From a virus (lineage: Duplodnaviria; Caudoviricetes): DNA of 44,751 nucleotides. The notes beneath the pieces are model-generated. The model had not been told where the DNA came from. It saw nothing but the letters and a program-made list of their open reading frames with translations, and did no database searches. The position numbers and the translations under genes are program-made. Shown here piece after piece: positions 8,622 through 37,278 of the stretch. The stretch's first letter is position 1. Every line of letters starts with the position of its first letter. Location: IMG/VR virus record IMGVR_UViG_3300036783_000070, positions 1 through 44,751 of that record; one strand, 5' to 3'.

Positions 8622-8963
8622 TCACTTAGTTTTCTGTGTGTCCAGGCCTTCAAGGGCATCGCCGACACTTGCCCACTTGTTATGAATAGCATAGTAATCG
8701 ACCTTACCATGCTTTAGCACGCCTTCGGTAATGAGAATCGATTGAACCTCATCTAGAAGCTTGCCTTGAAGCCCTTCATACCAGTTGAGGAAGTATTCGA
8801 CGTTAACTAGGTAACGAGGACTTCTCACACCAGTACTGATCTTCTTTGTCGTCTTCCTCTTGCGCATATACTCACGCATGTAGTCACGGCGATGGTCTTC
8901 GCAGTAGGCAGACTTAGGATGCGCCTTAGGCTTTGAGCACTTGGCGCACTTACCGTTGGGCAT
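8622..8963 (-). CDS. Hypothetical protein with N-terminal Cys/His zinc-finger-like motif
   Basis: CAKC...YCEDH motif followed by a basic helix; RBS AGGAGG; in operon. Confidence 0.6.
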   Translation of the reverse strand: MPNGKCAKCSKPKAHPKSAYCEDHRRDYMREYMRKRKTTKKISTGVRSPRYLVNVEYFLNWYEGLQGKLLDEVQSILITEGVLKHGKVDYYAIHNKWASVGDALEGLDTQKTK

Positions 8964-9270
8964 CGATTTCCCTCCTAAGGATTTCTGCCTGAGCCGTGAG
9001 CTCTAGGATCTCTGCCTCGATAGCTGCGAGCCTAGCCTGCGGACTCCTTCTGGCCGAGAGCTTGAGCACGACCTTGATGTTGCTAGGGTCAAGGTTGGAT
9101 CGATCGTTGTCCTTGAAGATGACACGCTCGTTGTCGTTGAGGGGCCTGTTGAGCTTCTTCTCGGCAATGATGATGTGCTTGCCGACCCAGCCACGCTTCG
9201 TCTTGACTTGTGTGTACCCTAGTGCGTTGACAGTCTCGTCACCGATCTTGCTAGGCTTTCCTCGAGGCAT
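8950..9270 (-). CDS. Degenerate HNH-fold protein with C-terminal coiled coil
   Basis: GY..VK....KH...AEKKLNRPL..NE.V.F.D.DRSN..PSNI resembles HNH_3 but lacks the HH catalytic residues. Confidence 0.65.
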   Translation of the reverse strand: MPRGKPSKIGDETVNALGYTQVKTKRGWVGKHIIIAEKKLNRPLNDNERVIFKDNDRSNLDPSNIKVVLKLSARRSPQARLAAIEAEILELTAQAEILRREIDAQR

Positions 9271-9710: not shown

Positions 9711-12074
9711 TCACAGGACACCCCAGTTGTCACCGATCTCGATGTCTACGCCGAACTTGACGTAGTCACCGACGATCGTTCTTGCCGACTCGAGCATTGT
9801 ACTCTCGAGTCGCATCTTAACCTCGTCCACGTCCCTTTGATGACACTCAACGAGTATCGAGTCGTGAACGAGGTTCCTCACCCATCCTACGCCTTTCAAC
9901 TGCGGACGTAGCCAGGTGAAGGCTTGTAGGCAAATGTCTGAGGCTGTCGATTGCGGGAGGAACGCAAGAGCCTCATTCATTACCTCATGGCTGTTCTGAT
10001 CCGTAATCAACCAGAACCTGCGATGCCGACCGAAGGGCGTTATCAAATCCTCGCCCCTGTGGACCTTCTGCTTGGTCTCTTCGCGGAAGTCGACTATGTT
10101 AGGAATGACGTCGAAGAAGGCACGCATGCCTCGTTGTGCTTCGCCTACAGGGATGCCGAACTCATCGGCGATCGACTTAGCCTCTCGGCCATAGCCCAGT
10201 CCATAGACGTAAGCCTTGACGCGTATTCGGAGCTCCTTGAGCGCAGGCTTATCAAGGCCTGCGAGATCGCCGTAGAGTCTTGGGGCGAGCTCGTCGAAAA
10301 TGTCACGAGTTGGGTCGTTGAATATTTCCCGAAAATAAGGCTCTTGAGCCAACCACGTGAGCATTCGTAGTTCGGCTTGCTTGTAGTCGGCCTGAACAAA
10401 TACGTATTCAGGTCGAGTAGGTACGAATTGACGACGGAGTACTTCTCCGCGTGTGATATTTTGAAGGTTAGGGTTACGACAAGAAAGTCTTCCCGTCGTC
10501 GTCCCATGTAGAAGGAACGTCGGAAATACACGGCCCTTATAGACGCGTTGACGTATACCTTTGACGTAGGTTCCATACGACTTGGCATCCTTTCTATGAG
10601 CCAGGAGTAGTTCGAAGAATTCATATGCCTCTCCATCTACCTTGCCACGATACTCATCCAGAGCATCTGCATCCGTAGTGGGACGCATCTCACCCTTCTG
10701 GTTACGCTTAAGGATTGGTCGGAGTCCAAATCCTTCGATCGCTTCCAGAACCTGCTTCGGTGATCGTGGGTTGAATGATGACTGATCGATGAGTGTTGCC
10801 ATAGAGCTTTCCAGGGAGGCCAAGCGTCGTGAATACTCTTGTGCCAGCTCGGAATTATATTCCAGATCCACACCGATTCCATTGAGCTCAACGAACATGA
10901 GTTCGTTGGATGCCTGAATGAGAAAATCGTGTAGTGCACGCAGGCCAGGCTCCGCGTCAAGAAGAGCGCTGAGCATTTCAAACAGCGCGTACGTAGCGGC
11001 GCAATCGTATGCATTGTACTTGTACAATACGTCACGTGGTATTGCACCGTAGCCGTCGCCGGGACGAAGGTAGCGCTTGATCTCGTCATCGTACTGGGGA
11101 GTACCGAGCCTTTCCACAGCATTGTACTTAAGGCCGTGAATCCCTGGTCGCTCGTCAAGGCAGTAACTGGCGAGCATTGTGTCGAACCAGAGCTTGAGAC
11201 CTCGCAGGCCTTTAGCGTAAAGCCCTCCAAGATCGAACTTGCCATTCTGAGCAATGATTCGACGGCATGCGTCAGCAAGGTATTTCCTGAGAGCCTCGAT
11301 GACTGAAGTGTCTCGAAGGACACGCTCACCGAACACACACACCTTTCCGGGAGCGTATCCGATGCCCACACAGAGTAGAGTATGTCTTCTGACGTGCTCG
11401 AAGGAGACGTCTTTGTCCACATCAGTCTCAATGTCAACTGAGACCGTCGCATATGCGGCAAGTTCATCAATTGCTCGATGAGCGGACTCTGCATCGTCGA
11501 CCACGGTATATTGAGGCTCGGTCCACTCATGGCTTAGCCCTTTGAGCTTGGCGAAGTCGTTGACGATGGACGGGAAGTAGCTGTCCCCCTTCGGCCGGAG
11601 GCATGCCGCGGGATGGAACGTGGGAATGACCTGAAAGCCAAGCTCTTCGACTTCCTTTGGTGGTCCAATACGGAGGCGTGTGATTCCCACCTTACCTCCC
11701 AGAAGACTCTGTGCGGAAGAGTTACCGAGAGCCACCACTTGCTTGATCTTTCGCTCCTCCAGCTCGTGAAGGAGACGGGGCCTACACGCACGGATCGCGT
11801 TCGCGGAAGGGGTTGCGTTCTCCGGCGGCCTGCATAGGCACGCATTGGTGAGGAAAGTCTCTTCGCGATCGATGTGGTGGTACTGTAGGACCTTGTCCAG
11901 AATCTTGCCTGATACGCCAGAGAAAGGAATACCAATGCGAGTCTCATTTGCGCCTGGAGCCTCGCCGACGACTGCGATGCCATTCTTTCCGTTGCCGAAC
12001 GATGGGACGAACTTGCCATCTTCATACAGGTCACACTTCTCGCATAGTGCGTGAGGATTCTTACGTTCGGTCAC
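9711..12074 (-). CDS. DNA polymerase I (family A) with N-terminal family-4 uracil-DNA glycosylase domain
   Basis: UDG4: CEKC, GEAPG, TNACLCRPP, HPAA. Exo: DIET, NGKFD, YNAYD. Pol: TTTGRLS, ADYKQAELR, KAYVYGLGYG, VHDS. Confidence 0.95.
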   Translation of the reverse strand: MTERKNPHALCEKCDLYEDGKFVPSFGNGKNGIAVVGEAPGANETRIGIPFSGVSGKILDKVLQYHHIDREETFLTNACLCRPPENATPSANAIRACRPRLLHELEERKIKQVVALGNSSAQSLLGGKVGITRLRIGPPKEVEELGFQVIPTFHPAACLRPKGDSYFPSIVNDFAKLKGLSHEWTEPQYTVVDDAESAHRAIDELAAYATVSVDIETDVDKDVSFEHVRRHTLLCVGIGYAPGKVCVFGERVLRDTSVIEALRKYLADACRRIIAQNGKFDLGGLYAKGLRGLKLWFDTMLASYCLDERPGIHGLKYNAVERLGTPQYDDEIKRYLRPGDGYGAIPRDVLYKYNAYDCAATYALFEMLSALLDAEPGLRALHDFLIQASNELMFVELNGIGVDLEYNSELAQEYSRRLASLESSMATLIDQSSFNPRSPKQVLEAIEGFGLRPILKRNQKGEMRPTTDADALDEYRGKVDGEAYEFFELLLAHRKDAKSYGTYVKGIRQRVYKGRVFPTFLLHGTTTGRLSCRNPNLQNITRGEVLRRQFVPTRPEYVFVQADYKQAELRMLTWLAQEPYFREIFNDPTRDIFDELAPRLYGDLAGLDKPALKELRIRVKAYVYGLGYGREAKSIADEFGIPVGEAQRGMRAFFDVIPNIVDFREETKQKVHRGEDLITPFGRHRRFWLITDQNSHEVMNEALAFLPQSTASDICLQAFTWLRPQLKGVGWVRNLVHDSILVECHQRDVDEVKMRLESTMLESARTIVGDYVKFGVDIEIGDNWGVL

Positions 12075-12835
12075 GAGGCTGCCTTGTCCAGAGCTTCGAT
12101 GTTCTTGTCGACGAGCCAGATCGGGAAGTTGCTAACCTCCCTACCGAAGTAGTTCTTGACACGCTCGTTCATCCTGCTCTCTTCCATCCAGAGCTGATCA
12201 CCAGCGTCAGCCCAGACGAACGGAGCGTCAGTGTCGATGGAACGTACCCACTGTGCAAGACGCTTGACCTCATTCAGCGGCCCCTGTGGATCCTTCGCTC
12301 GTGAGAGGCCCAGCAGGTGGATACTTGCTATGCTAGGTGAACACTGCGCTCGGATCTCCCGCACGGCTAGCTCTCGTGTTCCGACGCCCATGTCTTCATT
12401 CATTCGACGAGGAAGACCGAACGTGTAGTGACCGATGCCAGACTGGTACATCAGCTTGCCTGTCTGGTAGATGAACTTGGAGATCTCGTCAGGCGACTGT
12501 ACCTGCATGACGACTTGAAGGTTGAAGTCGTAATCTGTCTGCTCGAAGATCTGGAGGAAGCCTTCGAGCTGTTCGAGAGTCTTCTCAGAGTCACGATAGG
12601 TATCGTTCACGATGATCTCGTTGCAGTGGTAACGCATGCCGATGTCCATGAGCTCTTCAGGACCGTAAGGTTCCTTCTCGAACATGCCGTTGTCGAGGAG
12701 CGTGTAGCAGCCGCGAAGTGCCTCGTACTGCTTACGCAGTCGGGGGAACTTGAGCATTTCGGGAACTAGCATCTGCGTCTGACGGTGCTGGATTCTCTCG
12801 GACAGACAAGCCGGAGGAATGATTGCTACCTGCAT
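12071..12835 (-). CDS. Putative TGT/DpdA-like base-exchange transglycosylase (TIM barrel)
   Basis: LLDNG.FE, IIVND, VVMQ, FGLPR, IHLLG and RSIDTDAP motifs parallel TGT/DpdA D-S-G, V.Q, H.LG and S.D motifs; lies in the preQ0 cluster. Confidence 0.6.
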   Translation of the reverse strand: MQVAIIPPACLSERIQHRQTQMLVPEMLKFPRLRKQYEALRGCYTLLDNGMFEKEPYGPEELMDIGMRYHCNEIIVNDTYRDSEKTLEQLEGFLQIFEQTDYDFNLQVVMQVQSPDEISKFIYQTGKLMYQSGIGHYTFGLPRRMNEDMGVGTRELAVREIRAQCSPSIASIHLLGLSRAKDPQGPLNEVKRLAQWVRSIDTDAPFVWADAGDQLWMEESRMNERVKNYFGREVSNFPIWLVDKNIEALDKAAS

Positions 12836-12856
12836 AGTTACTCGCTTCCCGCGGAG

Positions 12857-12880
12857 CGGGGCCAGATTGCTCTGGCCCCG
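12857..12880 (-). terminator. GNRA-capped hairpin, possible terminator or stabiliser
   Basis: CGGGGCCAGA-GCAA-TCTGGCCCCG perfect 10 bp stem on -. Confidence 0.55.
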
Positions 12881-12887
12881 TCACACG

Positions 12888-13082
12888 TCAAATGGTGTTA
12901 GGCGGCTGGGGTAGAGGAGGAGTAGGTTCCGGGTGCTGGACCAGACTCGCCTGGTGCACAGCGAGATCCTGGCTCGTGTTGTTCGCGACCGTGTGCGCCT
13001 TGAACGCTGTGACGAGCGCCGTGATGGCTCCGATGATGCCAGCGATAGCAGTGCAGAGCGCTGCGATGGTTGCCGGGTTCAC
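12888..13082 (-). CDS. Small single-TM protein
   Basis: Hydrophobic N-terminal helix, Pro-rich tail, coupled to upstream gene. Confidence 0.65.
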   Translation of the reverse strand: MNPATIAALCTAIAGIIGAITALVTAFKAHTVANNTSQDLAVHQASLVQHPEPTPPLPQPPNTI

Positions 13083-13351
13083 TACTTCGCGCCAGGGACG
13101 ATGTGCGTGAGGTTGTTCTCGACGGCATGGATCTGAGAACGAACTGCCTGGTCCTTTGCCTCGACTAGCTTCTGCATGGCCTTGGTGAGCTCGGGACTCG
13201 ACGGAACGACCTTCATGATGTCCATGGCGAGCTTCTCGAACATCTGCGGGATGTGCTTGAGCTCATCCTTGAGGTGACTCGAGTCGAGGAACCGCACGAC
13301 GTCGTTGACGGGCTTGGCGTGCATGAGCTGAATCGATGGATCAATTGCCAC
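13082..13351 (-). CDS. Conserved phage helical-hairpin protein (possibly Acb2/Tad1-like)
   Basis: F..SHL...L......F..LA......P.SPE.T.A..KL.EAKD.AVR motif, a widespread phage family. Confidence 0.55.
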   Translation of the reverse strand: MAIDPSIQLMHAKPVNDVVRFLDSSHLKDELKHIPQMFEKLAMDIMKVVPSSPELTKAMQKLVEAKDQAVRSQIHAVENNLTHIVPGAK

Positions 13352-13646
13352 CTTGGAACATCTCCTTTGCTGAGATGAAGCCTTCCTTGACTTCAGGCCT
13401 CGATGCGTAGAACTGGTTGAGCTGCTTCTGCAGGATGTACAACTTGATGTACGTCATGCGAGCGTAGTTGCCGAGGTCCAAGACCTCTTCCATTGCCTCC
13501 TGAAGAGTGTCCGCACCGAGGAACTTGAACGGTCCGTACTTCTCTTCTCCTAGCTGGAGACGATGTGCAGCCTCATCGACGAAGGCTGTATCGGCCTCAG
13601 CCAGGATTGATGGCAAATCGTTCGGTGTTACGCTCTCGCTTGGCAA
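13341..13646 (-). CDS. All-alpha NTP pyrophosphohydrolase-like protein
   Basis: R...G..KYG.......L.EAMEEVLD..NY with EExxD acidic motif. Confidence 0.6.
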   Translation of the reverse strand: MPSESVTPNDLPSILAEADTAFVDEAAHRLQLGEEKYGPFKFLGADTLQEAMEEVLDLGNYARMTYIKLYILQKQLNQFYASRPEVKEGFISAKEMFQGGN

Positions 13647-13908
13647 GGTAATGCTCCTCCAGGTTGTCGACTTCCAGTGCTCCGAAGAGCGTTGATAGGT
13701 AGGTCAGAACGTCGACGAGCTCTTCCGTAATCTGAGGCTTGAGCTCGGTGAAGGTGTGTGTACCTCGTTCTACCTTCTTGACGAGGTTAGCGACTTCACC
13801 AACCTCTCCAGCCAGTGCTAGAGTGAGGAAGGGGATGTCATACGGACGTTCGGGAAACCAGTCCGTAGTGTCTTCATGACACTGCTTGACGAGCTCTTCC
13901 AGATTCAC
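13597..13908 (-). CDS. MazG-like nucleotide pyrophosphohydrolase
   Basis: LAGEVGEVANLVKK and EELVDVL MazG motifs. Confidence 0.9.
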   Translation of the reverse strand: MNLEELVKQCHEDTTDWFPERPYDIPFLTLALAGEVGEVANLVKKVERGTHTFTELKPQITEELVDVLTYLSTLFGALEVDNLEEHYLAKRERNTERFAINPG

Positions 13909-14453
13909 CGGATTGCCTCCATGAATTCCATTTTCGCGGTTCGCGAGTGGTCATTGAAGACTCCTCGCATGACGGTCGTTCTGGTCTTGCTACCGAGTGC
14001 CTTCGCTCCTCGGATGCCCATGCAGGTATGTTCTGCCTGTAGGACGACTGCGACGCCTAGAGGGTCAAGCTGTCCCTCAATGACGTTAGCGATCTGTTCC
14101 GTCAACTCTTCTTGAGTCGACAAGCTCGCTGAGCACTGAGTCACCAGCCTCGGAAACTTACTGAGGCCTGCTATAACCTTGTTCGGTATGTAGCCGATGT
14201 GTGCAACACCGTAGTACGGGAAGACGTGGTGCCTGCACAGGCTGGCAAAGCGAATGTCGGTCACGGTAACCATCTGATCGACTTCGGCAGTGAAGGTCGT
14301 GAAGTCGAACTGCAGAGGTGTTGTCATCTGCTTCAGAGCTTCGACAAACCTTCGCGGCGTGTCTCTCTCCTGTGGATCACTCGGATCGAGACCCGCGACC
14401 CTAGTTAGGAGTACGCGTGCCAGGTCTTCGTCGTTCAGTGGACTAAATGCCAC
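13905..14453 (-). CDS. folE: GTP cyclohydrolase I
   Basis: DTPRR, SLCRHH, GLSK, QEELT, AEHTCMGIRG; likely start GTG at 14453 overlapping the queE end. Confidence 0.95.
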   Translation of the reverse strand: MAFSPLNDEDLARVLLTRVAGLDPSDPQERDTPRRFVEALKQMTTPLQFDFTTFTAEVDQMVTVTDIRFASLCRHHVFPYYGVAHIGYIPNKVIAGLSKFPRLVTQCSASLSTQEELTEQIANVIEGQLDPLGVAVVLQAEHTCMGIRGAKALGSKTRTTVMRGVFNDHSRTAKMEFMEAIR

Positions 14454-15141
14454 GGACTTGGGCTCCGTAGATGTAGTTGTGGACTTGTACGTTGAGTCGC
14501 CAGGGAAGTCGATGTTCCTGGATGAACTGAACGATGGCGTTTGAGGGATATTGGCCCCAGGCAGCTCCAACGTAAACCTCCGGCATCTGATCGACGAGGT
14601 ACTTCCAGTAGAGCTCCTTGGCTGCGGTCAAGTCCGATCGCTTGGCGATAACGAACTTGACTGCGTCACCAGGTGTAAGCTTCGGGATGTTCTGGATACG
14701 AGTTTCATCGTAAGGGTTCTCATTGCTGGCTGGAAGCTTCCAGTCCATGATGAACCTGCAGCCGAGATCGATGAGCTCGTCAGGAAGAGGCCTCGTACCG
14801 TTCGTGAACATCTCGAACGTGAAGGGACTGTCGTAGGCGTCGAGCTCCTGGATTACCCTGACGATATCCTGTGTAGGCTGGATGAGAGGCTCGCCACCTG
14901 TGAAGCAGATGTTCGACGCGAAAGTATCGATGTACTTCCGATTGATGTCGAAGGCAAGCTCTTCTGCCAAGATCTTCTTCTGCTCGTCCTTGAACAGTTC
15001 AGGCTTAATGGCATAAGGCGTATCGCACGGCCATCCAGAGCACTTCAGGTTACATCCGGCGAACCGAACGAACTGAGTCAGGACACCAACGTACGGTCCT
15101 TCGCCCTGCGTTGAGGTGTAATGCTCTAGGAGGCGTAGCAA
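14443..15141 (-). CDS. queE: 7-carboxy-7-deazaguanine synthase (radical SAM)
   Basis: STQGEG, FVRFAGCNLKC...CDT, TGGEPL, TNGT, VKFVI, RLNVQVH. Confidence 0.95.
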   Translation of the reverse strand: MLRLLEHYTSTQGEGPYVGVLTQFVRFAGCNLKCSGWPCDTPYAIKPELFKDEQKKILAEELAFDINRKYIDTFASNICFTGGEPLIQPTQDIVRVIQELDAYDSPFTFEMFTNGTRPLPDELIDLGCRFIMDWKLPASNENPYDETRIQNIPKLTPGDAVKFVIAKRSDLTAAKELYWKYLVDQMPEVYVGAAWGQYPSNAIVQFIQEHRLPWRLNVQVHNYIYGAQVRGI

Positions 15142-15248
15142 GATACGTTTCCTTCCAGGAAGCTCCAGATGGTTACTTGTCCCCGCTGAAGCTGCTTGAA
15201 CTGCCAGTCTCGTACTTGAATAGGACCGTTGTACATACTGGCGCCCAT
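15126..15248 (-). CDS. Possible 40-aa small protein
   Basis: MGASMYNGPIQVRDWQFKQ... fills the queD-queE gap; GAGG upstream. Confidence 0.4.
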   Translation of the reverse strand: MGASMYNGPIQVRDWQFKQLQRGQVTIWSFLEGNVSCYAS

Positions 15249-15265
15249 TCCGTAGTTGTTACCTC

Positions 15266-15682
15266 TCACTCGCTACTCCAGGTTGCGCAGTTGACTGCTG
15301 TCTCCCAAACAGTTACGGACGTTTTCGAGCAGCCGAAGAACTGGTTGGCCCATGAACCAACACCGTTTGCAAGGTTCTCGGTTGTAGGATCTCCAGGCAG
15401 AGTCGCTAGGCCAGGCAGGAGACCCATATCTCCAATGTTCTGGGCCCAGGGGTCACGTGCGTTGAGAAGAATACGATGGTCGAACTCGTGATCCAGGAAG
15501 CCGCGGAAGTGCTGCTTGACTATGCCGAAGTCAAGGCTGTTGAGCATTCCACGACCGTCGATGGAACCGAACAGTTCAAGTTCGACGTTCCAACTGTGGC
15601 CATGAATCTTCTCGCACTTGCCTGGGGTCTCGAAGAGACGATGTGCCATCTCGACGTTGTGCTTGACCTTGATGCTCTGCAT
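15266..15682 (-). CDS. queD: 6-carboxy-5,6,7,8-tetrahydropterin synthase
   Basis: AHRL, C..IHGHSW, DFG, DH..LLN, PTTENLA, VWET. Confidence 0.95.
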   Translation of the reverse strand: MQSIKVKHNVEMAHRLFETPGKCEKIHGHSWNVELELFGSIDGRGMLNSLDFGIVKQHFRGFLDHEFDHRILLNARDPWAQNIGDMGLLPGLATLPGDPTTENLANGVGSWANQFFGCSKTSVTVWETAVNCATWSSE

Positions 15683-15795
15683 TACTTCCCTCGGATGCCT
15701 CTGACGACAGCAGCTACGGCTGCCGACAGAACGAATATAAGGACCAGAATGATAATGGCCTGAAGGATATCCTTTCCGAACTCACTCCACGGCAT
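15682..15795 (-). CDS. 37-aa single-TM protein (not in ORF track)
   Basis: MPWSEFGKDILQAIIILVLIFVLSAAVAAVVRGIRGK; overlaps the queC end and is TAATG-coupled to queD. Confidence 0.65.
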   Translation of the reverse strand: MPWSEFGKDILQAIIILVLIFVLSAAVAAVVRGIRGK

Positions 15796-16498
15796 TGGTA
15801 ACGGCCTTCCAGTACAGGTTGTCCTCGTAGAGGGTCTTGTCGATGTCGTCTGCATCAGCACCGTGAATGGCTTCGAGACGCTCGACGCAGGTTCCGCACT
15901 TGCCGCAGTGGATCATACCACCCTTGTAGCACGACCACGTCTTGTCGAACGGGACGTTGAGCTCCTTGGCACGCTTGGCGATCTGCGTCTTCGTCTTGTA
16001 AAGGTAAGGAACAGTGATCCCGAAGTTCGGAACGATGAAGCCCTGGTTGGCCATCATCAGAACCTGCTCGAGGCTACGAATGAAGTCGGGCCTGCAGTCA
16101 GGATAGATTGCGTGGTCACCAGCGTGAACGGCTGTTGCTATGGAGTCTGCCTTACGAGCTACTGCGACCCCTGCAGCCATCGAGAGCATGCTCATGTTAC
16201 GGTTCGGAACAACCGTCGAGCGCATGTTGACGTTGTCGTAGGCACCTTCAGGCACTGCAATGTCACGGTTCATTAGCGACGAGATGCCCTCGCTGATCAA
16301 CTCGCCATAGCCGACGAGGTTGATGACTTCGTGCCTGATGTTCAGGTCGTAGGCGATCTGCTTCGCCGCGTCGAGCTCCTTAGCGTGACGCTGCCCGTAG
16401 TTGAACGAGACAGCCTCGACGTCGATGCCCTGACTGAGCAAGTCATAGATCATCGTTGTGCTGTCGAGTCCACCACTGAAGACTGCGATCGTTTTCAT
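15782..16498 (-). CDS. queC: 7-cyano-7-deazaguanine synthase
   Basis: SGGLDS, FNYGQRH, VPNRN, YPDCR, TWSCY, HCGKCGTCVER. Confidence 0.97.
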   Translation of the reverse strand: MKTIAVFSGGLDSTTMIYDLLSQGIDVEAVSFNYGQRHAKELDAAKQIAYDLNIRHEVINLVGYGELISEGISSLMNRDIAVPEGAYDNVNMRSTVVPNRNMSMLSMAAGVAVARKADSIATAVHAGDHAIYPDCRPDFIRSLEQVLMMANQGFIVPNFGITVPYLYKTKTQIAKRAKELNVPFDKTWSCYKGGMIHCGKCGTCVERLEAIHGADADDIDKTLYEDNLYWKAVTNAVE

Positions 16499-18654
16499 TC
16501 TTCCTGCTCTCCTAGCATGGAGTTGTAGGTTGTAGCACGGCCACCGCCACCCTTTGTAATGACGCCGCGCCCCACGAGGGTCTTCTCTACGTCATCCATT
16601 TCACGTGCTGTCATATGGTATGTCTGCATGAGTCGAGAACGACTTACCGTCCCCTTCTTCTCGACAGCATTCTGGATGAGTTTGATTCGATGCTCGCTGT
16701 CGCTCTGGCCAAGAGACATCACTACGTCTTGAGAGTAGCGTCGCCAACCGTCTGTGTACGACAACGCCTTGAGTAGGTCGTGTACTCCGATGACGAGTGA
16801 GCCTTCTTGGCTTCGTGCGGCAGCTATGAGCATTGCACACTTGAGCGTGCTGATGGAAAGCCGTGCGTTCGTCGGAACAAGTAGACCAGCATACTCTCCT
16901 GTGTCGAGAGCTATCTGAGTCATAGTCTGGTCGAACTCGTTGAATCGCAACCAGGCTTCAGGAGTCATGGTGACTTCTTGAATCTGGTTGGTAACTCCTA
17001 CGACCTTACCTGCAACTGAGATAGGAACTGTCTTGGTATGCCTATCTCGAATGTCACGAAGCTCTTGCACGAGTGCCTCGCGTCCCTGAAGGTCATTCTC
17101 CACAGGGGGGCCGAGTGGCTTTACCTTACTGACGTCGCTCTCTGCTGTCACGATAATGAACCGTGGAAGAAAGCCCGACTCTACATGTTCCTGATTAAGG
17201 AGCCTTGCCGTCTTAGACTTGATGCCTCCACCGAAGACGATGAACCGGGGATCCTTGATGACAATCTCTTCCTTGCGGAGGAGACGCTTTTCTCTCTTGC
17301 CGTCGTATAGCTTCGTGAAGAGCTCAGGCATTCCTGCCATGTAGTCCTTCTTGGTCATCTGCTGAATCAGACCTGTGAACTCGTCACGAAGGAATACAGA
17401 CGGTTTGCCACTCCTGACCGATAGTGCCGTTAGGAGACCTTCAATGGATCCGTCAGTGGCCATCAGGATATCTTCGTCTACGTCGTTGACGATATCCATT
17501 GCCATATCCATCGCGGTTGACTTCCTAGTTAGCGTTGTGTCAGCTAGGATCATGAACCAAAGGTTGGGGATGAGCTTACCGAATGACGTTGGTAGAACCA
17601 TTGAGCCGGTTAGTACTGACGACAGCTGAATGAATGCTCCAGCTATATGATACTGTTCAGCTGCATCTCCTGCGTGCTTAGCCCATTCAAAGTACCGATC
17701 AACGTATGTTTCCGGAAGAGACTCTACTAGGTCCCATTCCCTCTCGGTCAAGATCGATATCTCACCAGTCGGTGGAGCTGACAGTGTGACTCGTGTCTCT
17801 TCGAACTTCGAACGTGCTCGGCATACGTCTTTCCAAAGCCTAATGTCTTCGCCTTGGAACTTGTTGCATTGTGCGTCACGACATAGTAGGAACGTCTCTA
17901 CCATTGTCAGGCGTGCTTCGAAACAGTACATCGACAGACTGTAGAGTGCCTTGGAACGATCTTCCGGGGCCTCTCGATAGAACAGGGTGAGGACTGCTCC
18001 GTTGAGCTTGAACTTGTTATCTTCTAGAACCTGCTCGCCTGATCTAGCGGGCAAGTCTGGAAAAGGTACATCGAGGTACTCGTAGCCTTCAACTTGCGGA
18101 TAGACTATGAAGTCGTCAGGCTTACTGGTGATGCTTGGATCCCAGTGATGAATTCCAACCTTGGGAATGTCACTTGTGTACTTGAAGTTGTTCGTTCCTG
18201 GGACACGAAGCAGCTGCGTTAGATCCCAGCCAGAAACGTCTGAACCTACGTTCCTGTGGCCATATGCTACTCTCCGGGAGAGCGCTTCGGCGTCTTCTGC
18301 GGCGATAGGTTGTTCGAGAGACCATATAGCTTGATAACGTTCTGGACTTGTTTCGAGGACAAGCGTCGGGCGTACCAGGAGATTGTTAGGATTACAATCG
18401 TCGAGATCAGCCCAGACGCACTGAACCAGATCCACATTCGCTTTGATCCTTCTCGGCTCGACGAGAAGCTGGGGACAGTAGTAGACGTTCTCGACGTTGA
18501 CCTTCTGCTTGATAAAGGCCAATGCGCCGCTAACTTCGTCTGGATATCTGTAAAACTTCTCAGTGAAGGGGCCCCCCGATCTACGTGATGCCATGCACAT
18601 GTAGCCTTCTGTATTACCGAAGGACTGTGCGAAGAAACGTTTCAAGCCTGACAT
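16495..18654 (-). CDS. RepB-like primase fused to DUF3987-type helicase/ATPase
   Basis: WADLD, ETSPERYQAIW, LRVPGT.N.K (RepB primase); RKST, GS.EGL, RDEF, SGFLPRF (ATPase). Confidence 0.9.
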   Translation of the reverse strand: MSGLKRFFAQSFGNTEGYMCMASRRSGGPFTEKFYRYPDEVSGALAFIKQKVNVENVYYCPQLLVEPRRIKANVDLVQCVWADLDDCNPNNLLVRPTLVLETSPERYQAIWSLEQPIAAEDAEALSRRVAYGHRNVGSDVSGWDLTQLLRVPGTNNFKYTSDIPKVGIHHWDPSITSKPDDFIVYPQVEGYEYLDVPFPDLPARSGEQVLEDNKFKLNGAVLTLFYREAPEDRSKALYSLSMYCFEARLTMVETFLLCRDAQCNKFQGEDIRLWKDVCRARSKFEETRVTLSAPPTGEISILTEREWDLVESLPETYVDRYFEWAKHAGDAAEQYHIAGAFIQLSSVLTGSMVLPTSFGKLIPNLWFMILADTTLTRKSTAMDMAMDIVNDVDEDILMATDGSIEGLLTALSVRSGKPSVFLRDEFTGLIQQMTKKDYMAGMPELFTKLYDGKREKRLLRKEEIVIKDPRFIVFGGGIKSKTARLLNQEHVESGFLPRFIIVTAESDVSKVKPLGPPVENDLQGREALVQELRDIRDRHTKTVPISVAGKVVGVTNQIQEVTMTPEAWLRFNEFDQTMTQIALDTGEYAGLLVPTNARLSISTLKCAMLIAAARSQEGSLVIGVHDLLKALSYTDGWRRYSQDVVMSLGQSDSEHRIKLIQNAVEKKGTVSRSRLMQTYHMTAREMDDVEKTLVGRGVITKGGGGRATTYNSMLGEQEE

Positions 18655-22338: not shown

Positions 22339-22753
22339 TGATTGGGTCCTTTTCTTCAGCCTGAGGCATTTCCTCAGGAGTCTCTTGAGGACGGAGTTCG
22401 TCCAGTATGTCATGGTGTCCGTTCATCAAGTTGCCGATGAACTTCTGGACAACCATTTTCGTAGGCCGATTGCAGGTAGCGTGCACCCACCAACCGAACC
22501 TCTTGGTCTTGGAGTAGCCGAACTTGTTGCCGCTGGAACGCTTTCCAGTACAGCGACACCAGTTCTTAGGCTGGGCAAGCATCCACTCGATCTTGCCGTA
22601 GGCAGCAGTGACAGTTCCGAGTTCCATAACTAGATCCCGAAACATCCCTATGTGCTGAACCTCTGAGGGAACGTTTTGCGCTTCCCAGATCTTCTTGACG
22701 AAGGACTCGGCAGCTTCGTTATCCCTGAACGTGAGTAGTATCGCGCGTGCGAT
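22328..22753 (-). CDS. Hypothetical Cys/His metal-binding protein (start uncertain)
   Basis: CRC...GWWVH.TC.RP motif; frame stays open upstream of ATG 22645 to an ATC preceded by AAGGGAG. Confidence 0.6.
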   Translation of the reverse strand: MARAILLTFRDNEAAESFVKKIWEAQNVPSEVQHIGMFRDLVMELGTVTAAYGKIEWMLAQPKNWCRCTGKRSSGNKFGYSKTKRFGWWVHATCNRPTKMVVQKFIGNLMNGHHDILDELRPQETPEEMPQAEEKDPINVA

Positions 22754-23156
22754 TTCGGCCAGCTCCCTTCAAAGCATAGAGCTCTGTAGCTATTGCTAGT
22801 CTGCGTTCTCTTTGCTTATCCGTAAGTGCATATCCTCGACCTGTCATCAGCGTTCCGAATTCGAGAGCCAAGTCTACTTCTTCTACCTTGAGTACCACGT
22901 AAGGTCTTATCAGGGTAAGCATCCGAATTGCCGTATGACCAGCACTACGTAGTTTGTAGAAGCCTCGATGCTCACAGTAGAATCCGCCCAGAAACTCCTG
23001 CATGTAGAGAAGCGGCTTAGGCCTATTTTGGCCTATTTCTACGCGAACGAGGCATCCATCGTTATAGACACCTACACTACCTTCTCCGTCGAAGAAGCCT
23101 GCAGCATAGGCAAGCTCCGTTTGACTAGCCGCTCGCGTCGGCGCGCCTCTCGCCAT
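22719..23156 (-). mobile_element. Free-standing LAGLIDADG homing endonuclease gene
   Basis: LAYAAGFFDGEGSV motif; PY...K C-terminal motif. Confidence 0.88.
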
Positions 23157-36141: not shown

Positions 36142-36456
36142 CTAGCTCATGAACTGCTCGGCGAGCTTGTCGTAGTCCTGCTTGCCGGCGACTGCGTCTC
36201 CGCGCTCGATGCGGGCGACGAAGTCCTTGATGTACTCGGCGAGCGGCTCGGCCTCGAAGTAGACCTTCTCCTTGTCGGCGCGCGTGCTGTAGTTCGACGG
36301 GATCGTCCCGTTCTTCGCCGCGGAGTACATCTGCTGCGGCGGGATCTTCCGGTCGATGCCCTTGAGCTCGAGGATGCGGTTGATGACCTGGGCGGCGGCG
36401 TACGGCGTGAGCGGCGACATCGGGGTCTTGTTCGAGGTGTTGGTGTTCTCGACCAT
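36142..36456 (-). CDS. Early putative HTH protein, paralogue A
   Basis: LTPYAAAQV.NR...PQQMY..AKNGTI.SNY.TRA.KEKVYF; AGGAG RBS; followed by a GAAA-loop hairpin at ~36119-36136. Confidence 0.8.
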   Translation of the reverse strand: MVENTNTSNKTPMSPLTPYAAAQVINRILELKGIDRKIPPQQMYSAAKNGTIPSNYSTRADKEKVYFEAEPLAEYIKDFVARIERGDAVAGKQDYDKLAEQFMS

Positions 36457-37020: not shown

Positions 37021-37278
37021 CTACATGAACTGCTTGGCCAGTTCGTCGAAGTCGACCCGACCTGCCTGCTGCGAAGCGGGCTTGTCGAGCCAGGCCTTGA
37101 AGGCGTCGCCGTCGAAGTATACCTTCTCCTTTTCCGCCCGCGTCTTGTAGTTCGAGGCGATGGTTCCGTTCTTGGCGTAGCCGTACATCATCTGCGGCGT
37201 AACCTTGCGATTCTGATCCTTCGCTGCGAAGACGCGGTTGGCGACCTGTGCGGCAGCGTAAGGGGTCAGGTTCTCCAT
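37021..37278 (-). CDS. Early putative HTH protein, paralogue B
   Basis: Closely similar to 36142..36456; AAGGAG RBS; followed by a GAAA-loop hairpin at ~36989-37009. Confidence 0.8.
   Translation of the reverse strand: MENLTPYAAAQVANRVFAAKDQNRKVTPQMMYGYAKNGTIASNYKTRAEKEKVYFDGDAFKAWLDKPASQQAGRVDFDELAKQFM

What the first reader, a model, noticed from the sequence alone, without database searches (positions are those of the whole stretch)
9711..16498. 7-deazaguanine DNA modification module wired to the polymerase and nucleotide-pool enzymes
Seen in one co-directional run: queC, queD, queE, folE, MazG, a second all-alpha NTP-PPase-like gene, small genes, a TGT-fold gene and UDG-PolA. Known: FolE-QueD-QueE-QueC make preQ0 from GTP, and phage DpdA enzymes insert 7-deazaguanines into DNA against restriction. 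No QueF, ArcS or Gat-QueC is visible, so dPreQ0 (or a hydrolysed derivative) is the predicted base. Inference: coupling to the polymerase and the two pyrophosphatases suggests a pre-replicative route, with base exchange on a free deoxynucleotide, dGTP depletion and polymerase incorporation, analogous to Z-genome phages rather than post-replicative exchange.
Basis: partly seen in the sequence, partly recalled or inferred. Interest (0 to 1): 0.8.

Follow-up and report, generated by a model that had tools for sequence, protein, structure and literature searches.

The report
Phage DpdA3 blanket guanine-replacement module
An uncultured phage carries a DpdA3-type gene set for making a 7-deazaguanine base, and it and its module-bearing relatives show no avoidance of restriction sites whereas relatives that lost the module do, so most of its guanine is likely replaced, probably by swapping the base on free nucleotides before DNA copying rather than in finished DNA as published (untested).

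Summary
Observation confirmed, except that the "second PPase" rests on a motif only. The TGT-fold gene is DpdA3 (profile match to phiST DpdA3 E 2e-23; not DpdA1), the subfamily found in phages with complete G replacement, published as post-replicative but never assayed. Bacillus phage BSP7 has the same Que+DpdA3+UDG-PolA set. Evidence added here: the window and 9 module-bearing relatives show no depletion of G/C 6-bp palindromes, while two separate module-loss lineages and 7 of 8 DpdA1 phages do; this points to blanket, not motif-limited, protection. The pre-replicative idea still has support: an NMP-kinase-like gene lies within 3 genes of dpdA3 in 6 of 7 cultured phages and is fused to it once, and MazG keeps its acidic residues in 85 of 86 module loci but not in a module-less one. 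Against: this clade lacks the kinase. Base: dPreQ0 or dADG. Odds: near-complete replacement about 0.8, pre-replicative about 0.55. The scan noted this module before on other DNA (e1-10236591).

The parts
15782..16498 (-). QueC, 7-cyano-7-deazaguanine synthase, stand-alone (238 aa); start overlaps the primase stop
   Evidence: closest of 5 cultured phages tested is Rosebush-type phage Lars, 42%
15682..15861 (-). small hydrophobic ORF between queC and queD (probable ATG at 15795, 37 aa); role not known, not conserved as far as checked
   Evidence: (no family)
15266..15682 (-). QueD, 6-carboxytetrahydropterin synthase, CxxxHGH intact
   Evidence: motif read
15126..15269 (-). 47-aa ORF, no family
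14443..15141 (-). QueE radical-SAM CDG synthase (TTG start)
13905..14453 (-). FolE, GTP cyclohydrolase I (probable GTG start 14453; longest ORF reaches 14570)
13597..13908 (-). MazG-family all-alpha NTP pyrophosphatase, acidic residues E35, E38, E63, D66 intact; substrate not shown, dGTP inferred
13341..13646 (-). 101-aa helical protein, conserved module member; NTP-PPase-like motif only; its slot is taken by a dATP/dGTP diphosphohydrolase (PF18909) in L058
13082..13351 (-). 89-aa accessory ORF (phrog_1761, phrog_5120), in 7 of 89 loci; not a core part
12888..13082 (-). 64-aa accessory ORF with hydrophobic N-terminus
12857..12880 (-). 10-bp perfect hairpin (GCAA loop) about 20 nt before the dpdA3 start, no U tract; possible RNA control element
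12071..12835 (-). DpdA3-family guanine transglycosylase (254 aa, bare TIM barrel; D48, N49, D78, H173, G176, D201, N245 conserved)
9711..12074 (-). family A DNA polymerase with N-terminal family-4-like UDG and 3'-5' exonuclease; start overlaps the dpdA3 stop; also present in relatives without the module
16495..18654 (-). primase-like replication gene that flanks the module upstream (context, outside the finding)

Best explanation
This is a DpdA3-type 7-deazaguanine module that sits between the primase and the polymerase of a large clade of uncultured tailed phages and likely replaces most genomic guanine, probably before replication. Steps: (1) FolE, QueD, QueE and QueC turn GTP into the free base preQ0, or its amide ADG (established chemistry of these families; genes shown intact, product not measured). 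(2) MazG is predicted to cut dGTP to dGMP, which both drains dGTP and feeds the next step (inferred; the analogy to MazZ of Z-genome phages is recalled). (3) DpdA3, which keeps the TGT/DpdA aspartates, is predicted to swap guanine for the new base on dGMP through a covalent sugar-enzyme intermediate (fold and residues shown, substrate inferred). (4) Host guanylate and nucleoside-diphosphate kinases would make the triphosphate, because this clade has no kinase of its own (inferred; weakest step). (5) The phage PolA, which needs no visible specialisation, would copy with it. Result: protection of G-containing restriction sites regardless of motif.
For: DpdA3 membership: the only tblastn hits among 50,697 phage records are phiST-group CGPG_00065 (5 records), named DpdA3 in Cui 2023; family profile vs phiST protein probability 99.6, E 2e-23, full length and vs CAjan DpdA1 4.5; model vs phiST model TM 0.78. 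The three DpdA3 phages measured are completely substituted and DpdA3 failed when expressed in E. coli, where DpdA1 works. Blanket protection: depleted G/C 6-bp palindromes (Poisson p<1e-3) number 0 in the window, 0 in 8 and 1 in 1 of 9 module relatives, 1-8 in 5 of 5 module-less sets, 3-15 in 7 of 8 DpdA1 phages, 0-2 in 6 cultured DpdA3 phages. Module-less polymerases form two separate nested lineages and the second also shows depletion (8 seen, 26 expected, p 3e-5; sisters 208/229; window 210/208; none of 29 low-GC module loci below p 0.01). Nucleotide level: P-loop NMP-kinase-like gene within 3 genes of dpdA3 in 6 of 7 cultured phages examined; CP220 dpdA3 lies among tail genes flanked by an HD+P-loop gene and a 'thymidylate kinase'; natural kinase-DpdA3 fusion P0209; no MazG, 101-aa or kinase hit by my profiles in 11 DpdA1 loci. 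MazG acidic residues intact in 85 of 86 distinct module-locus copies (the exception is a cut ORF) and broken in module-less L108; the 101-aa ortholog has lost its motifs in module-less L104; PF18909 dATP/dGTP diphosphohydrolase directly before dpdA3 in L058.
Against: No kinase in this clade: the kinase profile hit 2 of 35 records, both used to build it; 2 of 84 distinct loci; no small P-loop kinase in 9 module genomes. Cui 2023 proposes that all such modifications are post-replicative. Every characterised TGT/DpdA works on polymeric nucleic acid (passages). The palindrome signal shows breadth of protection, not timing; groups are related, hosts are unknown, and module-less genomes have lower GC; the ten words were picked after seeing pools that held L104 and L108. 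A hydrolase is not universal: PF03819 found in 1 of 15 cultured phages searched (the search missed annotated copies), none seen beside dpdA3 in BSP7, Youna2, MA9V-3 or StAshley, and two DpdA1 phages have a MazG-like gene 4-5 kb from dpdA. L108 keeps a second MazG-like gene after the polymerase, and decay rests on 2 short contigs (24% and 9% complete). MazG also resembles dUTPase/dCTP pyrophosphatase. Net charge does not separate DpdA3 from DpdA1.
Confidence: 0.52

Rival explanations
1. Published model: DpdA3 is a highly efficient, sequence-independent transglycosylase that swaps guanine in DNA during or after replication; MazG, the kinases and HD proteins are house-cleaning or recycling enzymes.
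For: Cui 2023 conclusion; conserved TGT/DpdA fold and aspartates; no kinase in this clade; fits the palindrome result equally well; dpdA3 start/stop overlap with polA allows coupling at the fork.
Against: DpdA3 never shown active on DNA, failed in E. coli; does not explain kinase adjacency in 6 of 7 cultured phages, the fusion P0209 or MazG decay after loss; ADG nucleoside was seen in the cytoplasm of CP220-infected cells (cited; original paper not held); DNA-acting DpdA1 reaches at most about 30%.
Confidence: 0.36
2. Partial or motif-limited modification as in DpdA1 phages (CAjan: GA and GGC; about 30% of G), with MazG acting as a dUTP sanitiser for the UDG-polymerase.
For: Same Que gene set as CAjan and Rosebush, which carry dPreQ0 at 28-32%; MazG has a weak dUTPase_2 hit (E 0.008); no annotated dUTPase among window ORFs scanned.
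Against: Protein is DpdA3, not DpdA1; no G/C palindrome depletion, unlike 7 of 8 DpdA1 phages; module-less relatives keep UDG-PolA but lose or degrade this MazG.
Confidence: 0.09
3. The que genes serve host tRNA (queuosine) or the module is inactive.
For: Top Foldseek hits are tRNA TGTs; Hutinet 2019 raised tRNA boosting for DpdA-less phages.
Against: No QueF; TGT hits are distant (E 1e-6, TM 0.5-0.6) against phiST DpdA3 (TM 0.78); all ORFs intact; restriction-site signature follows the module.
Confidence: 0.03

Closest known systems
Bacillus phages BSP7/BSTP5 and Weizmannia phage Youna2 (DpdA3 + FolE, QueD, QueE, QueC; BSP7 and BSTP5 listed in Data S1 of PMC10516641)
   Same: Same order primase-queC-queD-queE-folE-dpdA3-UDG/PolA; their polymerases are the best cultured matches to the window's (31-32%).
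   Different: They have an NMP-kinase-like gene directly before dpdA3 and no MazG or 101-aa gene there; the window has the reverse. No DNA analysis of BSP7 was seen in what I read.
Cellulophaga phage phiST dDG system (DpdA3, DpdL; Cui et al. 2023)
   Same: DpdA3 homolog; order queD-queE-folE-MazG-...-dpdA3-polymerase.
   Different: phiST lacks QueC, has DpdL and a kinase-like gene, uses a DnaE-type polymerase, and carries dDG.
Campylobacter phage CP220 (complete dADG) and Flavobacterium phage immuto_2-6A (complete fdPreQ1)
   Same: DpdA3 with invariant D48, N49, D78, H173, L175, G176, D201, N245; CP220 has the same listed Que set.
   Different: CP220 genes are scattered and dpdA3 is flanked by HD+P-loop and kinase genes; immuto adds QueF, DpdN, kinase and a PRTase.
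DpdA1 dPreQ0 phages CAjan and Rosebush
   Same: FolE-QueD-QueE-QueC plus a TGT-fold enzyme; in CAjan next to the polymerase.
   Different: Different subfamily (DSG not DNG motif), motif-limited, about 30% of G, still avoid palindromes.
Z-genome (2-aminoadenine) phages: PurZ, MazZ, DatZ, DpoZ (recalled)
   Same: Proposed logic: pool remodelling, dGTP-to-dGMP MazG, host kinases, family A polymerase.
   Different: No PurZ; the polymerase scores 63 bits against a DpoZ cut-off of 500; the key enzyme is a transglycosylase. Works-like claim only.

Membership tests
DpdA3 guanine transglycosylases | Homology to phiST CGPG_00065 over the full length | tested here: met
   E 2e-23; TM 0.78
DpdA3 guanine transglycosylases | TGT-type TIM barrel with the three active-site aspartates | tested here: met
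   (7ui4 DpdA Z 15.6, rmsd 3.4, 224 aligned, tied with archaeosine TGT); D48 and D201 in 143 of 143 and D78 in 142 of 143; mapping to DpdA D95/D130/D256 is by motif order, no residue-level superposition was printed
DpdA3 guanine transglycosylases | Encoded with 7-deazaguanine synthesis genes in a phage | tested here: met
DpdA3 guanine transglycosylases | Complete replacement of genomic guanine | not testable with these tools
   indirect support only:
DpdA1 (CAjan/9g/Rosebush) | Full-length homology to CAjan DpdA and DSG motif | tested here: not met
   (probability 4.5, 75 columns); DNG in 141 of 143 vs DS[GS]A in 11 of 11 controls
MazG-family all-alpha NTP pyrophosphatase (13597-13908) | ExxE...ExxD metal-binding motif and homology to solved members | tested here: met
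MazG-family all-alpha NTP pyrophosphatase (13597-13908) | dGTP specificity | not testable with these tools
   nearest solved relatives are a Vibrio-type MazG entry (2q73, labelled hypothetical) and dCTP pyrophosphatase 1
All-alpha NTP pyrophosphatase (13341-13646) | Significant homology to a known member | tested here: inconclusive
Z-genome-type pre-replicative system | DpoZ-type polymerase | tested here: not met
   NF038380 63 bits vs cut-off 500; same PolA lineage occurs without the module
Z-genome-type pre-replicative system | Modified base made as a free dNMP/dNTP | not testable with these tools
   needs enzyme assay or pool analysis
UDG-fused family A polymerases (SPO1-like, PMC13697223 passages) | N-terminal UDG domain with catalytic motifs kept | tested here: inconclusive
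   PF03167 E 2e-26, TIGR00758 121 bits vs cut-off 125; GEAPG and HPA motifs present (motif roles recalled); subfamily placement not tested

The most novel reading that the evidence does not exclude
DpdA3 is not a DNA-modifying enzyme but a nucleotide transglycosylase: the first TGT-fold enzyme acting on a free deoxynucleotide, giving a guanine counterpart of Z-genomes. This clade would be its minimal form (Que genes, one or two dGTP hydrolases, DpdA3, host kinases), and loss of restriction-site avoidance would be a sequence-only marker for fully G-substituted phages.
Probability: 0.5. Interest if true: 0.8.

Novelty: new variant of a known kind. Interest (0 to 1): 0.52.

Why it matters
How phages replace all of their guanine has been open since the Campylobacter phage work: a modified dGTP was proposed (passage), then post-replicative DpdA3, with no enzyme data. 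This compact one-operon version, and cultured BSP7 with the same core in Bacillus subtilis, make the question testable with three small proteins. If nucleotide-level, it revises the published mechanism, adds new chemistry to the TGT fold and offers an enzymatic route to fully 7-deaza-G DNA. The module itself is a known kind, and the clade is large (112 distinct uncultured dpdA3 loci), so such genomes may be common.

Tried and rejected
Single-sequence fold was useless (pLDDT 43); the 143-row alignment fixed it. Sequence search of PDB with the DpdA3 alignment found nothing. Polymerase adjacency as evidence for timing: rejected. Polymerase specialisation: no difference seen by eye between 3 module and 3 module-less sequences; not tested further. 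Charge or pI as a DNA-binding marker: DpdA3 median pI 5.7 (143), DpdA1 5.8 (11), uninformative. My first impression that module genomes avoid AT-only sites did not hold with pooled counts (O/E 0.78-1.40). The 101-aa ORF could not be tied to MazG or PF18909 by profile comparison. The 89-aa ORF looked to me like a nucleotide-sponge hairpin protein (recalled); Pfam and PDB gave no support. No bacterial or archaeal genome locus was returned for the DpdA3 motif (1 confirmed stretch, 0 loci), so the host stays unknown. QueC identities to 4 cultured phages (38-42%) do not tell dPreQ0 from dADG. The careful PolA tree did not finish; the quick tree is used. No complex prediction was run. Literature searches for a pre-replicative DpdA3 paper and for restriction-site avoidance in such phages found none in the held library; 'kinase' and 'dGTP' occur 0 times in the main text of PMC10516641. 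Two likely relevant papers (10.1128/JVI.01111-19, 10.1128/mmbr.00199-23) are not held and may already discuss this; I read only part 1 of 19 of the Cui supplement, whose sheet DS8 on CGPG_00066 may bear on the kinase.
Full report
OBSERVATION. The window is a virus record, about 71% complete, with tape measure, terminase and portal genes of a tailed phage. On the minus strand, from the primase down, lie queC, queD, queE, folE, MazG, a 101-aa ORF, two small ORFs, a 254-aa ORF and a UDG-exonuclease-PolA gene, mostly with overlapping stops and starts. The four preQ0 genes and the polymerase have clear family hits. QueD keeps CxxxHGH and QueC has no Gat domain. MazG is at the Pfam cut-off alone, but its alignment matches solved MazG and dCTP pyrophosphatases. 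The 101-aa ORF has a suggestive motif in 43 homologs and no significant match, so the 'second PPase' is open.

THE 254-AA GENE IS DpdA3. tblastn against 50,697 phage records gave five hits, all the phiST-group gene CGPG_00065, which Cui et al. 2023 named DpdA3 (bioRxiv sections 15 and 20 read, passages of PMC10516641). It has 465 relatives among cluster representatives. A 143-row profile aligns to the phiST protein end to end (E 2e-23) and barely to CAjan DpdA1. The model (pLDDT 97) matches TGTs, has bacterial DpdA and archaeosine TGT tied at the top (Z 15.6) and the phiST model at TM 0.78. D48, D78 and D201 are near-invariant and shared with CP220, immuto, BSP7 and phiST; by motif order they correspond to the acid/base, base-binding and nucleophile aspartates of DpdA (passages). 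So it should exchange bases on a guanine-bearing sugar. Which one is the question.

WHAT IS KNOWN. The three DpdA3 phages analysed are completely substituted, DpdA1 phages reach 0.1-30%, DpdA3 gave no activity in E. coli, and the authors propose that all insertion is post-replicative. Earlier, a modified dGTP had been proposed for Campylobacter phages (passage). Data S1 (part 1 of 19 read) lists BSP7, BSTP5, CP220, CP21 and IBB_35 with exactly DpdA3, FolE, QueD, QueE and QueC. BSP7 also has the window's gene order. The gene set is therefore known. CP220 carries dADG, while CAjan and Rosebush with the same Que genes carry dPreQ0, so either base is possible here; I put dPreQ0 at about 0.45 and dADG at about 0.4 (judgement).

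THE CLADE. Of 155 loci with dpdA3, 119 are distinct at 95% identity and 112 are uncultured. The polymerase follows directly in 99 of 110 with downstream DNA (inflated, since some loci were fetched by the polymerase). Among 84 with upstream DNA: FolE 79, QueD 77, QueC 74, QueE 72, MazG-like 69, 101-aa ORF 54, both 52, kinase 2. Relatives without the module exist; three larger ones lack dpdA3 and folE in the whole record, two of them rated 100% complete. In a quick PolA tree of 44 rows (a chosen subset of module loci) they fall in two lineages nested among module bearers, read as two losses.

BREADTH OF PROTECTION. I counted 6-bp palindromes against a maximal-order Markov expectation. G/C-containing words depleted at p<1e-3: window 0 of 46 tested; nine module relatives 0,0,0,0,0,1,0,0,0; five module-less sets 5,1,8,1,2 (CTGCAG, GAGCTC, CTCGAG, GGATCC and the like nearly absent); eight DpdA1 phages 4,15,15,6,0,3,4,3; six cultured DpdA3 phages 1,0,0,2,0,0 (for four of them only the first 60 kb was counted; for phiST, CP220 and immuto low GC lowers the power). 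The second loss lineage alone shows 8 of 26 expected for ten such words against 208 of 229 in three module-bearing neighbours, and none of 29 low-GC module loci falls below p 0.01. Limits: genomes are related, hosts unknown, and the ten words were picked after seeing pools that held these contigs. Still, selection against restriction sites disappears with the module and returns on its loss, and motif-limited DpdA1 (GA and GGC in CAjan; abstract) does not remove it. I infer an active system covering most G (about 0.8). This says nothing direct about timing.

TIMING. UDG-PolA fusions are known on their own (passages). Other signs do favour free nucleotides. A small P-loop kinase-like gene is next to dpdA3 in phiST, MA9V-3, BSP7, Youna2 and CP220, three genes away in immuto, and five away in StAshley. 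In CP220, dpdA3 stands apart from the que genes between an HD+P-loop gene and the kinase. P0209 fuses kinase and DpdA3. A DNA-acting enzyme has no clear use for a dedicated NMP kinase. My MazG, 101-aa and kinase profiles hit nothing in 11 DpdA1 loci, although two of these records annotate a MazG-like gene 4-5 kb away at the locus edge. In this clade MazG keeps its four acidic residues in 85 of 86 distinct copies and has lost two in module-less L108; L104 shows a motif-less 101-aa ortholog; L058 has a dATP/dGTP diphosphohydrolase in the 101-aa slot. Against: the clade has no kinase, so host Gmk and Ndk would have to accept a 7-substituted dGMP; L108 has another MazG-like gene; several cultured DpdA3 phages show no hydrolase beside the gene; and all assayed TGT-fold enzymes act on polymers.

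MECHANISM COMMITTED TO. GTP to preQ0 or ADG by the Que enzymes (established chemistry); dGTP to dGMP by MazG (inferred); base exchange on dGMP by DpdA3 (inferred); phosphorylation by host kinases (inferred); incorporation by an unspecialised PolA (inferred). Confidence 0.52 for this chain, 0.36 for efficient exchange on DNA, 0.09 for partial modification, 0.03 for a tRNA or dead module.

NOVELTY AND SCORE. New variant of a known kind: the DpdA3-Que set is published, the kinase-less MazG plus 101-aa version is in an uncultured clade. My searches of the held library found no paper that assays DpdA3 or argues from kinases or palindromes; two relevant papers were not held. The scan reached the same reading on other DNA (e1-10236591 and others, one leaning the other way); I looked only after forming mine and count it as no support. 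Interest 0.52; 0.8 if the nucleotide-level route is shown.

Noticed in passing
window 12857-12880 (minus strand): Perfect 10-bp hairpin just before the dpdA3 start; L004 has a near-identical one with a paired base change, and L006, L008, L011 have other strong stems there. Possible RNA-level control of dpdA3-polA.
   Followed up: partly
P0209 (463 aa): Natural fusion of a P-loop NMP-kinase domain (best PDB match YorR 2axp, E 1e-5) to a DpdA3 barrel. No DNA context available.
   Followed up: partly
L058 4768-5391; L084 5762-6403: DpdA3 loci with a Vut_1/YhhQ-type transporter and no FolE in the record (records 42% and 70% complete): possible salvage versions that import the base.
   Followed up: partly
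L012 3172-3672; L014 3728-4477; also L028, L035, L040, L154, L189: A DJ-1/PfpI-family gene inserted between queC and queD in several relatives; candidate for a further change of the 7-substituent.
   Followed up: no
L008 2145-5054: Primase and QueC are one 969-aa ORF; real fusion or frameshift not checked.
   Followed up: no
L126 4799-5830 (CP220 gp055): HD domain fused to a P-loop domain directly before dpdA3; candidate dGTP-destroying enzyme of CP220.
   Followed up: partly
window 13082-13351: 89-aa helical protein of two unnamed PHROG families, patchy in the clade; may be an unrelated counter-defence gene (recalled likeness only).
   Followed up: partly
L212, P0216, P0220 family (P0212, P0216, P0220): DpdA3-like proteins P0212, P0216 and P0220 carry a shared 60-80 residue C-terminal extension with no Pfam hit.
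   Followed up: no
window 36142-36456 and 37021-37278: Two paralogous small ORFs with a shared 'LTPYAAAQV' start in the early region.
   Followed up: no
window 22719-23156 and 8950-9270: LAGLIDADG-like and HNH endonuclease genes flank the replication region.
   Followed up: no
slot before dpdA3 in L013, L057, L066, L071, L072, L074, L099; L043, L064; L087: Where the 101-aa ORF is missing the slot often holds DUF3310, DUF6378 or another small helical family.
   Followed up: partly
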